DNA from: a virus
Reading direction: 5' to 3' (one strand)
Virus record (IMG/VR): IMGVR_UViG_3300027805_000012
Span: 4,421 to 68,420 of that record
DNA: 64,000 nucleotides
The notes under the pieces were generated by a model that saw nothing but the letters and a program-made list of their open reading frames with translations, was not told the DNA's origin and ran no database searches. How positions within the stretch are numbered: the stretch's first letter is position 1; each line of letters starts with the position of its first letter. The position numbers and the translations under genes are program-made. Of this stretch, positions 50,660-50,744 are shown in pieces.

Positions 50660-50744
50660 ATGACAACCGAACTGGAATGGTTATCAACTTTGACTTTCAC
50701 TCAAACTGCCGAAAGGCATATCCGTTCCTCCAACTTGTTGTCAT
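50660..50744 (+). ncRNA. Non-tRNA scaffold displaying a tRNA-Glu-type anticodon loop
   Basis: atgacaac/gttgtcat, ggaatgg/ccgttcc, tttga-CTTTCAC-tcaaa, tgcc-GAAA-ggca. Confidence 0.6.

What the first reader, a model, noticed from the sequence alone, without database searches (positions are those of the whole stretch)
50660..50744. Isolated tRNA-Glu anticodon loop displayed on a non-tRNA scaffold (nuclease decoy?)
Two long helices close a junction carrying tttga-CTTTCAC-tcaaa. The 7-nt loop is identical to that of the canonical tRNA-Glu at 51549 and to the standard bacterial tRNA-Glu loop. There is no acceptor or CCA, so it cannot be charged. It could titrate anticodon nucleases, U34-modifying enzymes or GluRS.
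Basis: partly seen in the sequence, partly recalled or inferred. Interest (0 to 1): 0.72.

Follow-up and report, generated by a model that had tools for sequence, protein, structure and literature searches.

The report
Phage Y RNA inside tRNA array
The folded element is real, but it is best read as a phage-encoded Y RNA (the small RNA partner of the Ro60 protein, which this phage encodes 11 kb downstream) whose variable tip carries a tRNA-Glu-like anticodon hairpin: an unusual variant of a known RNA class, not a new class.

Summary
The described structure exists at 50660-50744. The scaffold matches Y RNA architecture: lower stem, bulged C, G.U/A-U pairs, upper stem ending in GGUUAUC, and UU before the 3' strand. 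The same contig, a fragment of a jumbo phage, encodes a full-length Ro60/Rsr at 61679-63289. A covariance model built only from RNAs next to Ro60 genes of distant phages finds this element as the top hit in the window (20.8 bits, E about 0.002). The family shows strong covariation in both stems across 63 sequences. It lies beside rsr in phages and bacteria. One member reaches the Rfam gathering score for nematode sbRNA, a Y RNA homologue. The anticodon-like hairpin sits in the variable apical module. Two orthologues keep the scaffold but have other 7-nt loops (CUUGUAA, CCAUAAA). Paralogues embedded in tRNA arrays carry CUUUCAC, CUUUUAC or CUUUUAU. So display of an anticodon-like loop recurs, but tRNA-Glu identity is not conserved. 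Decoy function remains untested.

The parts
50660..50744 (+). Whole element: compact Y RNA-like ncRNA (about 85 nt) between tRNA-Ile and tRNA-Gln
   Evidence: Fold. Top hit in the window for the covariance model R2, which was trained on Ro60-adjacent RNAs (50662-50742, 20.8 bits, E 0.002). Orthologues in G010 and L217.
50660..50667 (+). Lower (terminal) stem, 5' strand. Pairs with 50737-50744.
   Evidence: Lower-helix covariation in the family: (96.7% paired, 4 of 7 pairs compensatory).
50668..50670 (+). Bulged C (50668), then G and A that can pair with UU at 50735-50736. This is the CCGA(A) core of the Ro60-binding motif.
   Evidence: Read from sequence. Family: G.U at this pair in 54 of 63 sequences, A-U or G.U at the next pair in 49 of 63. 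Motifs GGUCCGA / GNCGAAN0-1G / CGAA come from PMC4201824 and PMC12135203.
50674..50680 (+). Upper stem, 5' strand (GGAAUGG). Pairs with 50722-50728 (CCGUUCC).
   Evidence: Upper-helix covariation in 63 family members: all 5 pairs show compensatory changes.
50679..50685 (+). GGUUAUC motif at the top of the upper stem and entry to the loop
   Evidence: Invariant in the family. Also present in the Rfam Y_RNA and sbRNA consensus lines and in the human Y4 5' fragment annotated as the Ro60 binding region (PMC5493846).
50689..50705 (+). Anticodon-arm-like hairpin UUUGA-CUUUCAC-UCAAA (loop 50694-50700), in the variable apical module
   Evidence: The loop differs in the orthologues. Similar loops occur in array-embedded paralogues.
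50707..50718 (+). GNRA-tetraloop hairpin UGCC-GAAA-GGCA
   Evidence: GCCGAAAGGC is identical in G010 and L217. Paralogues have GCC-GCAA-GGC or GCC-GAAA-GGC.
50722..50744 (+). Upper stem 3' strand (50722-50728), 3' internal loop, UU (50735-50736) and lower stem 3' strand (50737-50744)
50580..50654 (+). Flanking tRNA-Ile(GAU), ending in an encoded CCA 5 nt before the element
50756..50831 (+). Flanking tRNA-Gln(UUG), starting 11 nt after the element
51549..51622 (+). Canonical tRNA-Glu(UUC) whose anticodon loop (51579-51585) equals the element's loop
61679..63289 (+). Ro60/Rsr gene (TROVE + vWA), the presumed protein partner, on the same strand
   Evidence: Pfam vWA_Ro60 6e-48 and TROVE 6e-25. 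PDB: 2nvo Rsr 1e-102, 9nen RO60 5e-97, 1yvp Xenopus Ro60 3e-93.
61201..61333 (+). Larger member of the same RNA family directly upstream of rsr (GGAAC-C-GAUCGGUAGCGGUUAUC ... CUUU-GUUCC)
   Evidence: R1, full-length alignment, 11.6 bits. Conserved at the same place in L002, L004, L005, L010 and L011.
61357..61438 (+). Second conserved GGUUAUC-containing segment upstream of rsr. Candidate second Y RNA; structure not resolved.
   Evidence: Sequence conserved in 6 phages, but no covariation-supported fold.

Best explanation
The element is a phage-encoded Y RNA, the kind of small RNA that binds the ring-shaped Ro60/Rsr protein. It is of a compact type that resembles metazoan Y RNAs and nematode sbRNAs.

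Proposed mechanism:
1. It is transcribed as part of the tRNA polycistron. It is freed by the nucleases that mature the flanking tRNA-Ile and tRNA-Gln.
2. Its lower stem, with the bulged C followed by G.U and A-U pairs, together with the upper stem ending in GGUUAUC, forms the Ro60-binding platform. The partner is the Ro60 encoded at 61679-63289.
3. The enlarged apical loop is the variable 'effector' module, as in other Y RNAs. Here it consists of an anticodon-arm mimic (loop identical to tRNA-Glu) and a GNRA hairpin in the position of a tRNA variable arm.
4. By analogy with bacterial Y RNAs, which tether Rsr to PNPase and often mimic tRNA parts, the module most likely lets the Ro60 RNP engage, or be engaged by, a protein that reads anticodon arms. 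That could be a modification enzyme or an anticodon nuclease.

Shown here:
- the structure;
- family membership;
- covariation of both stems;
- linkage of the family to Ro60 genes;
- variability of the loop.

Inferred, not shown:
- expression and processing;
- Ro60 binding;
- any role of the anticodon-like loop.
For: 1. A Ro60 gene lies on the same contig and strand. It is full length and as similar to Xenopus and human Ro60 as to Deinococcus Rsr.

2. The signature [helix]-C-G-N(7-17)-GGUUAUC...UU-[helix] is strand-biased and enriched in related jumbo-phage records: 10 versus 0-1 control matches in G010, 8 versus 0-2 in G003. Sixteen members have perfect 6-bp terminal helices.

3. Family members sit directly upstream of rsr in most of 80 phage loci whose Ro60 is 40-87% identical. 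They also sit next to rsr in bacterial genomes: 27 hits, all on the rsr strand.

4. Model R2 was built only from 12 rsr-adjacent RNAs of distant phages. It finds 50662-50742 as the best hit in 128 kb searched, aligned full length, at 20.8 bits and E 0.002. The next hit has E 0.62.

5. Covariation in 63 sequences:
- 93.3% of cells paired;
- 13 of 15 pairs with compensatory changes;
- covariation score 0.767, against 0.265 for shuffles and 0.11-0.15 for slid controls.

6. The rsr-adjacent member L098:2687-2760 reaches the gathering score of Rfam RF01656, nematode sbRNA (38.1 bits, E 8e-7). It scores 19.1 bits on RF00019 Y_RNA. Both consensus lines contain ..GGUCCG(A/G)..GGGUUAU(C)..ACUUGAC... 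sbRNAs are Y RNA homologues (PMC4726728).

7. The human Y4 'Ro60 binding region' begins GGCUGGUCCGAUGGUAGUGGGUUAUC (PMC5493846). Compare the element's GACAACCGAACUGGAAUGGUUAUC.

8. G004 has a 79-nt member about 370 nt upstream of its rsr gene. It shares AUCCGUUCCU with the element.

9. Precedent: Deinococcus Yrn1 can be drawn with an 'anticodon arm' of 5 bp (PMC4201824).
Against: - No Rfam family (Y_RNA, sbRNA, YrlA) matches the element itself, even at E 10.
- The element's R2 score is modest, and the E-values of these quickly calibrated models are rough.
- The element lies 11 kb from rsr. Described bacterial and phage Y RNAs lie within 2-4 kb.
- The 5' motif is AACCGAAC rather than GNCGAAN0-1G: an A where the consensus has G. 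A-U at that pair occurs in 14 of 63 family members.
- Ro60 binding, expression and processing are not shown.
- These phages carry up to about ten copies per genome. That is more than any described Y RNA set and could mean the scaffold serves something besides Ro60.
- Alignments A4 and A8 were fitted to the model structure, which inflates pair counts somewhat.
Confidence: 0.75

Rival explanations
1. Stand-alone anticodon-loop decoy. The RNA exists to display a tRNA-Glu anticodon loop that soaks up an anticodon nuclease, a U34-modifying enzyme or GluRS, independently of Ro60.
For: - The loop is identical to that of the phage's own tRNA-Glu and is unique among non-tRNA hairpins in the window.
- Array-embedded paralogues carry CUUUCAC, CUUUUAC or CUUUUAU on unrelated stems (AUC/GAU, UCAA/UUGA, UCA/UGA).
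- One orthologue has CUUGUAA, which I recall as the canonical tRNA-Thr(UGU) loop form.
- tRNA-Lys(UUU) and tRNA-Thr(UGU) are known targets of the PARIS nuclease AriB (PMC12409363).
Against: - The conserved and covarying parts are the Y RNA stems, not the loop.
- Loop identity changes among the three orthologues (UUC, UGU, AUA-like), so a Glu-specific role is not conserved.
- The hairpin is thermodynamically marginal: -0.7, +0.3 and +1.4 kcal/mol.
- The scaffold family is tied to Ro60 genes.
- GluRS recognition also needs the acceptor and D arm (established knowledge of GluRS identity elements).
Confidence: 0.1
2. Decayed tRNA gene or processing spacer. The element is a relic of a tRNA that lost its D and T arms and CCA. 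It is kept only as a structured spacer in the polycistron and has no function in trans.
For: - The order of parts follows a tRNA: acceptor-like stem, D-loop-like AAUGGUUAUC, anticodon arm, variable-arm-like hairpin.
- A genuine tRNA-Lys of G003 has the D arm UGA-AAUGGUUA-UCA.
- Spacing from the preceding CCA matches that between tRNAs.
Against: - The 5' 24 nt are identical, and the GNRA hairpin and 3' strand nearly identical, across three phages while the middle diverges.
- Both stems covary across 63 relatives, many of which are not in tRNA arrays.
- The same design recurs next to rsr in phages and bacteria.
Confidence: 0.08
3. Scaffold for some other partner. This multi-copy family (up to about 10 per genome, some copies fused into tRNA-like genes) is recognised by a different phage protein, for example an RNA repair or processing enzyme. 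The link to Ro60 would then be only one use of the scaffold.
For: - Many copies lie far from rsr.
- The AACCG...GGUUAUC motif also occurs inside tRNA-like genes with inserts, at window 50924-51052 and in orthologues.
- The window encodes a CCA-adding-type nucleotidyltransferase and a metallophosphoesterase.
Against: No specific alternative partner is co-located with the copies. The only gene consistently adjacent across phages and bacteria is rsr.
Confidence: 0.07

Closest known systems
Metazoan Y RNAs (Rfam RF00019, e.g. human Y4) and nematode stem-bulge RNAs (RF01656)
   Same: - Paired 5' and 3' ends.
- A bulged C after the lower stem, followed by G.U/A-U pairs.
- An upper stem ending in GG-UUAUC.
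- UU-G at the start of the 3' strand.
- A variable loop.

A family member reaches the RF01656 gathering score.
   Different: - Encoded by a phage inside a tRNA operon rather than as a Pol III gene.
- No 3' oligo-U tail.
- The element itself does not score on either Rfam model.
- The apical loop is enlarged into two hairpins, one of them anticodon-like.
Deinococcus radiodurans Yrn1 (Rsr-bound Y RNA that tethers Rsr to PNPase)
   Same: A Ro60-binding stem formed by the termini. tRNA-like features occur in natural 5'-to-3' order, with a 5-bp 'anticodon arm' between them (PMC4201824).
   Different: Yrn1's 'anticodon loop' has 6 nt and there is no V arm. Here the loop has the canonical 7 nt and is identical to tRNA-Glu, and a GNRA hairpin occupies the V-arm position. 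Yrn1 lies next to rsr; this element is 11 kb away in a tRNA array.
Bacterial and phage YrlA / YrlB (Rfam RF02553; Salmonella, Mycobacterium, mycobacteriophages)
   Same: Ro60-associated, with a CGAA-type motif near the 5' end, tRNA mimicry as a theme, and several Y RNAs per genome. The compact rsr-adjacent relatives resemble the 'long hairpin with a small loop' type (YrlB, Yrn2).
   Different: YrlA mimics the T arm, D arm and acceptor stem and lacks an anticodon arm. This element has the reverse: an anticodon arm, no T arm and no acceptor end. There is no RF02553 hit. The 2014 survey discarded hits overlapping tandem tRNA genes and hits more than 4 kb from rsr, so array-embedded copies were out of its scope.
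Thermus phage phiLo Yrl1/Yrl2 with phage Ro60 (PMC12135203)
   Same: A phage-encoded Ro60 with phage-encoded Y RNA-like RNAs. These have a 5'-3' stem, a bulge with a CGAA motif, and two copies upstream of the Ro60 gene. That matches window 61201-61438.
   Different: phiLo Ro60 is only distantly related to this Ro60 (E 8e-4, against 1e-102 for Rsr). The phiLo RNAs are adjacent to the gene and are not described as carrying anticodon-like hairpins.
Phage tRNAs that counter anticodon nucleases (e.g. T5 tRNA-Lys, tRNA-Thr and tRNA-Asn variants against PARIS AriB)
   Same: A phage tRNA array as the place where tRNA-directed host defences are countered. The loops seen in this family (Lys-like, Thr(UGU)-like, Glu) overlap known nuclease targets.
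   Different: Those are functional, chargeable tRNAs that replace cleaved host tRNAs. This RNA cannot be charged and sits on a Ro60-binding scaffold.
Phage T4 stable RNAs species 1 and 2 (rnaC, rnaD) in the T4 tRNA cluster (from my own knowledge, not tested here)
   Same: Small stable non-tRNA RNAs co-transcribed and processed with phage tRNAs, of unknown function.
   Different: No known link to Ro60. No sequence comparison was made here.

Membership tests
Y RNA (Ro60-associated ncRNA, broad sense) | The 5' and 3' ends pair into a long stem, interrupted by a bulge or internal loop, with a variable loop at the top | tested here: met
   MFE fold. The same two stems covary in 63 relatives.
Y RNA (Ro60-associated ncRNA, broad sense) | Conserved Ro60-binding motif on the 5' strand (GGUCCGA in animals, GNCGAAN0-1G / CGAA in bacteria and phages) with a bulged helix | tested here: met
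   AAC-C-GAAC, with C 50668 bulged and GA pairing with UU. The CCGAA core is present. The first G of the bacterial motif is A here, as in 14 of 63 family members. Motifs taken.
Y RNA (Ro60-associated ncRNA, broad sense) | Encoded with a Ro60/Rsr gene, same strand, usually within 2-4 kb | tested here: inconclusive
   Same contig and strand, but 11 kb away. Homologous RNAs lie directly upstream of rsr in this window (61201-61333), in related phages and in bacteria.
Y RNA (Ro60-associated ncRNA, broad sense) | Recognised by a profile trained on bona fide Ro60-adjacent RNAs | tested here: met
   R2 (training set excludes the window and all array copies): top hit in the window, full length, 20.8 bits, E 0.002.
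Y RNA (Ro60-associated ncRNA, broad sense) | Physically bound by Ro60, with Ro60-dependent accumulation | not testable with these tools
   Needs RIP, EMSA or Northern blotting. The complex predictor here takes proteins and small ligands only.
Rfam Y_RNA RF00019 / sbRNA RF01656 | Score at or above the family gathering threshold | tested here: not met
   No hit on the element even at E 10. A relative, L098:2687-2760, scores 38.1 on RF01656 (gathering score 38) and 19.1 on RF00019 (gathering score 38).
YrlA (Rfam RF02553) | tRNA-like domain with T arm, D arm and acceptor-like stem-loop between the strands of the Ro-binding stem | tested here: not met
   No T-arm sequence and no RF02553 hit on the element. 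Larger relatives do carry GGUUCGAnUCC T arms.
tRNA | Cloverleaf with D and T arms, a 7-bp acceptor stem, a discriminator base and CCA (encoded in this array) | tested here: not met
   Not called by ARAGORN or Rfam tRNA. No CCA follows 50744.
tRNA anticodon-arm mimic / nuclease decoy (functional class, no formal family) | Anticodon-loop sequence conserved while the stem covaries | tested here: inconclusive
   - Orthologue loops are CUUUCAC, CUUGUAA and CCAUAAA, so Glu identity is not conserved.
- 7-8 of 10 array-embedded members have a 7-nt YU-NNN-RN loop right after GGUUAUC, on different stems.
- The sample is small and the sequences are related by descent.

The most novel reading that the evidence does not exclude
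Jumbo phages of this clade use the Ro60-binding Y RNA stem as a chassis for interchangeable tRNA-part mimics. These include T arms, D-loop-like GGUUAUC, and anticodon arms whose 'anticodon' switches between phages (Glu UUC, Lys UUU, Thr UGU). They express these RNAs from their tRNA arrays. The anticodon-arm versions would bait anticodon-loop-directed host nucleases or modification enzymes and couple them to Ro60 and an exonuclease. That would be an RNP-based counter-defence acting alongside the replacement tRNAs.
Probability: 0.2. Interest if true: 0.8.

Novelty: new variant of a known kind. Interest (0 to 1): 0.55.

Why it matters
Y RNAs and Ro60 occur from bacteria to humans, but what the variable module of a Y RNA does is still largely open.

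- **A new kind of tRNA mimicry.** Bacterial Y RNAs are known to mimic the T, D and acceptor part of tRNA. This element and its paralogues would be the complementary case, a Y RNA scaffold displaying an anticodon arm. That points to partners that read anticodon loops.
- **A blind spot in earlier surveys.** Ro60-type scaffolds can hide inside phage tRNA arrays, many kilobases from rsr. The published survey discarded such hits by design.
- **An uncatalogued family.** A compact GGUUAUC-type Y RNA family lies next to rsr in many phages and bacteria, and it has no family of its own in the Rfam release searched here.
- **A possible role in defence.** If the loops really track tRNAs attacked by host defences, this would link Ro60 RNPs to the tRNA arms race between phages and bacteria.

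Tried and rejected
**Searches that found nothing**
- Megablast and blastn against 50,697 phage records matched only the flanking tRNAs and nothing for the element.
- An exact-core pattern in IMG/VR gave no hits.
- Rfam at gathering and at E 10 gave nothing on the element and nothing useful on the rsr-upstream RNA.

**Searches that found little**
- Scans for subfamily patterns in IMG/VR recovered only the genomes already known, plus chance hits without a terminal helix.
- The metagenome scan added one orthologue, L217, and two chance hits.
- An R1 search of five whole phage records added no new members.

**Methods that failed**
- MAFFT misaligned the 5' helix because the spacer between CCG and GGUUAUC varies in length. 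I therefore used subsets with equal spacing and model-based alignment.
- The second conserved segment upstream of rsr (61357-61438) has conserved sequence but no covariation-supported fold.

**Readings rejected**
- A protein-coding reading is rejected. The ORFs that overlap the region, 50432-50755 (+) and 50401-50700 (-), run through tRNA genes.
- An internal promoter or terminator is rejected. The scan was at chance level and found no site at the element.

**A reading I corrected**
- I first judged that the G010 orthologue 'lacks the hairpin'. It can form a weak UCUGA/UCUGA stem with a central U.U and a 7-nt loop.

**Not attempted**
- Protein-RNA complex prediction, because the tool takes no RNA.

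Full report
**1. The observation**

The window is part of a 69.8-kb IMG/VR virus record estimated to be about 19% complete, so it is a fragment of a jumbo phage. Coordinates 49647-52467 hold an array of 17 tRNA genes with encoded CCA ends, plus several non-canonical tRNA-like genes.

- an 8-bp terminal helix (50660-50667 with 50737-50744);
- a 7-bp second helix (50674-50680 with 50722-50728);
- a 5-bp hairpin with the loop CUUUCAC (50694-50700);

The MFE is -22.4 kcal/mol, with z = -3.4 against dinucleotide shuffles. The loop equals that of tRNA-Glu(UUC) at 51579-51585. Among 1139 simple 5-bp/7-nt hairpins in the window, only these two have that loop. There is no CCA, and no tRNA or Rfam call on the element.

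**2. What the scaffold is**

The window encodes a full-length Ro60/Rsr at 61679-63289. Pfam gives TROVE plus Ro60-vWA. Against solved structures it scores E 1e-102 to Deinococcus Rsr, 5e-97 to RO60 and 3e-93 to Xenopus Ro60.

Ro60 proteins are bound by Y RNAs. In a Y RNA the two ends pair into a stem carrying the Ro60 site, and bacterial and phage Y RNAs are encoded near rsr (PMC4201824, PMC12135203).

The element has that anatomy. The lower stem ends in AAC. It is followed by a bulged C, then GA, which can pair with UU just before the 3' strand. The upper stem ends in GG-UUAUC.

The human Y4 'Ro60 binding region' begins GGCUGGUCCGAUGGUAGUGGGUUAUC (PMC5493846). The element reads GACAACCGAACUGGAAUGGUUAUC.

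**3. Relatives**

Ro60 relatives were found on 10, and then 80, IMG/VR contigs, many of 100-465 kb.

The element has an 80%-identical orthologue in a tRNA array of G010. A second orthologue lies in a metagenome contig, L217.

The signature CCG-N(7-17)-GGUUAUC is strand-biased and enriched in the related genomes. G010 has 10 matches against 0-1 for the reversed control, and G003 has 8 against 0-2. Sixteen copies have a perfect 6-bp terminal helix preceded by UU.

Copies lie in three settings:
- directly upstream of rsr, including window 61201-61333 and a 79-nt copy in G004 that shares AUCCGUUCCU with the element;
- between tRNA genes in two arrays per genome;
- at a few other sites.

**4. An independent membership test**

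I built model R2 from 12 compact RNAs that lie next to rsr in distant phages (Ro60 40-70% identical). No window sequence or array copy was used in training.

With filters off, the best hit in the whole window on both strands is 50662-50742. It aligns full length at 20.8 bits and E about 0.002. The next hit has E 0.62.

Over 76 loci, R2 finds 63 RNAs. Almost all are on the rsr strand, next to rsr. On that alignment:
- 93.3% of cells pair;
- 13 of 15 pairs show compensatory changes;
- the covariation score is 0.767, against 0.265 for shuffles and 0.11-0.15 for slid partners.

The caveat is that the alignment is fitted to the model structure. RNAalifold on the MAFFT alignment independently predicts both stems, with 10 of 13 pairs compensatory.

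R2 also hits next to rsr in Verrucomicrobia, Planctomycetes, Actinobacteria and other bacteria: 27 hits, all on the rsr strand.

One phage member, L098:2687-2760, reaches the gathering score of Rfam RF01656, nematode sbRNA (38.1 bits). It scores 19.1 bits on RF00019 Y_RNA. The printed consensus lines carry the same ..CCG(A/G)..GGGUUAU(C)..ACUUGAC.. landmarks. sbRNAs are accepted Y RNA homologues (PMC4726728).

I conclude that the scaffold is a Y RNA. The element itself does not reach any Rfam threshold, and it lies 11 kb from rsr.

**5. The anticodon-like hairpin**

The hairpin lies in the apical loop, which is the variable part of Y RNAs.

Between the window and G010:
- the first 24 nt are identical;
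- GCCGAAAGGC is identical;
- the 3' part matches at 21 of 24 positions;
- the hairpin region matches at only 11 of 22.

The three orthologues can each form a weak stem with a 7-nt loop:

| Orthologue | Loop | Local energy (kcal/mol) | Note |
|---|---|---|---|
| Window | CUUUCAC | -0.7 | |
| L217 | CUUGUAA | +0.3 | canonical tRNA-Thr(UGU) loop form, from my knowledge |
| G010 | CCAUAAA | +1.4 | stem has a central U.U |

tRNA-Glu identity is therefore not conserved.

On the other hand, paralogues embedded in tRNA arrays show, right after GGUUAUC, the following hairpins:
- AUC-CUUUCAC-GAU;
- UCAA-CUUUUAC-UUGA (twice);
- AUC-CUUUUAC-GAU;
- UCA-CUUUUAU-UGA;
- UUAU-CUGCUAU-AUAA.

That is 7-8 of 10 array-embedded members with a YU-NNN-RN heptaloop on different stems. 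Such loops are rare among about 35 rsr-adjacent and other members.

Larger relatives carry T-arm hairpins (GGUUCGAnUCC). A genuine tRNA-Lys of G003 has the D arm UGA-AAUGGUUA-UCA. The family therefore looks tRNA-derived or tRNA-mimicking, in natural order: acceptor-like stem, D-like GGUUAUC, anticodon arm, V-arm-like hairpin.

Deinococcus Yrn1 has been drawn the same way, with a 5-bp 'anticodon arm' but a 6-nt loop (PMC4201824).

**6. Mechanism**

Shown here:
- the structure;
- membership of a covarying, Ro60-linked family;
- a position inside a tRNA operon, with no internal promoter or terminator signal above chance;
- a variable anticodon-like tip.

Inferred:
- The RNA is co-transcribed with the tRNAs. 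It is released when the neighbouring tRNAs are matured. The 5-7 nt spacer after the preceding CCA is like the spacers between tRNAs.
- Its lower and upper stems dock on the phage Ro60.
- Its apical module engages a second factor. This follows bacterial Y RNAs, which tether Rsr to PNPase and serve as substrates of tRNA enzymes.
- That factor may be an anticodon nuclease or a U34-modifying enzyme. This is plausible because Lys(UUU) and Thr(UGU) tRNAs are known targets of the anti-phage nuclease AriB (PMC12409363), and jumbo phages with TROVE proteins are discussed as having RNA-repair platforms (PMC7824862). It is not tested.

**7. Comparison and novelty**

This is a Y RNA by architecture, motif, profile and genomic association. 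It is not a YrlA (no T or D arm domain, no RF02553 hit) and it is not a tRNA.

Three things are unusual:
- it is embedded in a tRNA array far from rsr, a location the 2014 survey excluded by design;
- it carries a canonical 7-nt anticodon loop on the apical module;
- it belongs to a multi-copy family in these jumbo phages.

I rate it a new variant of a known kind, with moderate interest.

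Noticed in passing
window 50924-51052; orthologues in L012 (around 1184, minus strand), L021 (around 1519, minus strand) and L039 (around 1519, minus strand): A tRNA-like gene with a normal acceptor stem, D arm, T arm and CCA, plus an insert of about 50 nt between the D arm and the anticodon region. The insert carries the same AACCG...GGUUAUC motif as the Y RNA family. It is conserved in four phages, with different apparent anticodons (CUU, CAU, ACG). Possibly a tRNA/Y RNA chimera or an unusual intron. Rfam tRNA scores only 27 bits.
   Followed up: partly
window 51062-51172, 51262-51361, 50237-50335: Further tRNA-like genes with acceptor stem, T arm and CCA but long insertions in or near the anticodon arm. 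51262-51361 scores 39.7 bits on Rfam tRNA. 50237-50335 gives a weak tRNA-Sec-like match and folds with z = -3.8. ARAGORN calls none of them.
   Followed up: partly
window 49982-50055, 50146-50231, 50342-50404: Three more structured non-tRNA segments in the array. Two have an acceptor-like terminal helix followed by NCCA but a non-tRNA interior. Several contain GAAA tetraloop hairpins. 49982-50055 contains CCGGAUUAGUGACGGUAGCGGCUAAG, a variant of the Y-type 5' motif.
   Followed up: partly
window 50064-50138: A second tRNA-Glu(UUC) has the anticodon loop CCUUCAA, with C rather than the near-universal U at position 33. This is reminiscent of phage tRNAs with altered anticodon loops that escape anticodon nucleases.
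   Followed up: no
window 61122-61678: The 560-nt non-coding region upstream of rsr holds one clear family member (61201-61333) and a second conserved GGUUAUC segment (61357-61438). The second has conserved sequence in six phages but no supported fold.
   Followed up: partly
L186-L214 (bacterial rsr loci) and L047-L126 (phage rsr loci): A compact (56-70 nt) GGUUAUC-type stem-bulge RNA lies next to rsr in many phages and in Verrucomicrobia, Planctomycetes, Actinobacteria and other bacteria. Apart from one borderline RF01656 hit, no Rfam family reports it. It may deserve a family of its own.
   Followed up: partly
L185 (JBBIQC010000584.1, 2.3 kb): A Ro60 87% identical to the window's lies on a tiny contig binned into an Oscillatoriales cyanobacterium MAG. 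This is either a hint at the host or a mis-binned phage fragment.
   Followed up: no
window 30922-32040, 28252-29193, 59462-59920, 59917-60504, 11183-13018 (minus strand): Neighbouring genes with Pfam matches: a PolyA_pol head domain (CCA-adding-type nucleotidyltransferase), a calcineurin-like metallophosphoesterase, NUDIX, an HNH endonuclease and an SbcC/SMC-like ATPase. The first two would fit an RNA repair or maturation toolkit.
   Followed up: no
window 49038-49661: A 207-aa ORF with no Pfam hit ends inside the first tRNA of the array (tRNA-Trp starts at 49647). Its N-terminus looks GIY-YIG-like by eye only, with no support from any tool.
   Followed up: no
window 26023-26097: An isolated tRNA-Arg(CCU) lies 23 kb upstream of the main array.
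   Followed up: no
L086 6622-6839: A group I intron (Rfam 89 bits) lies about 2 kb downstream of rsr in an unrelated Ro60-bearing phage contig.
   Followed up: no
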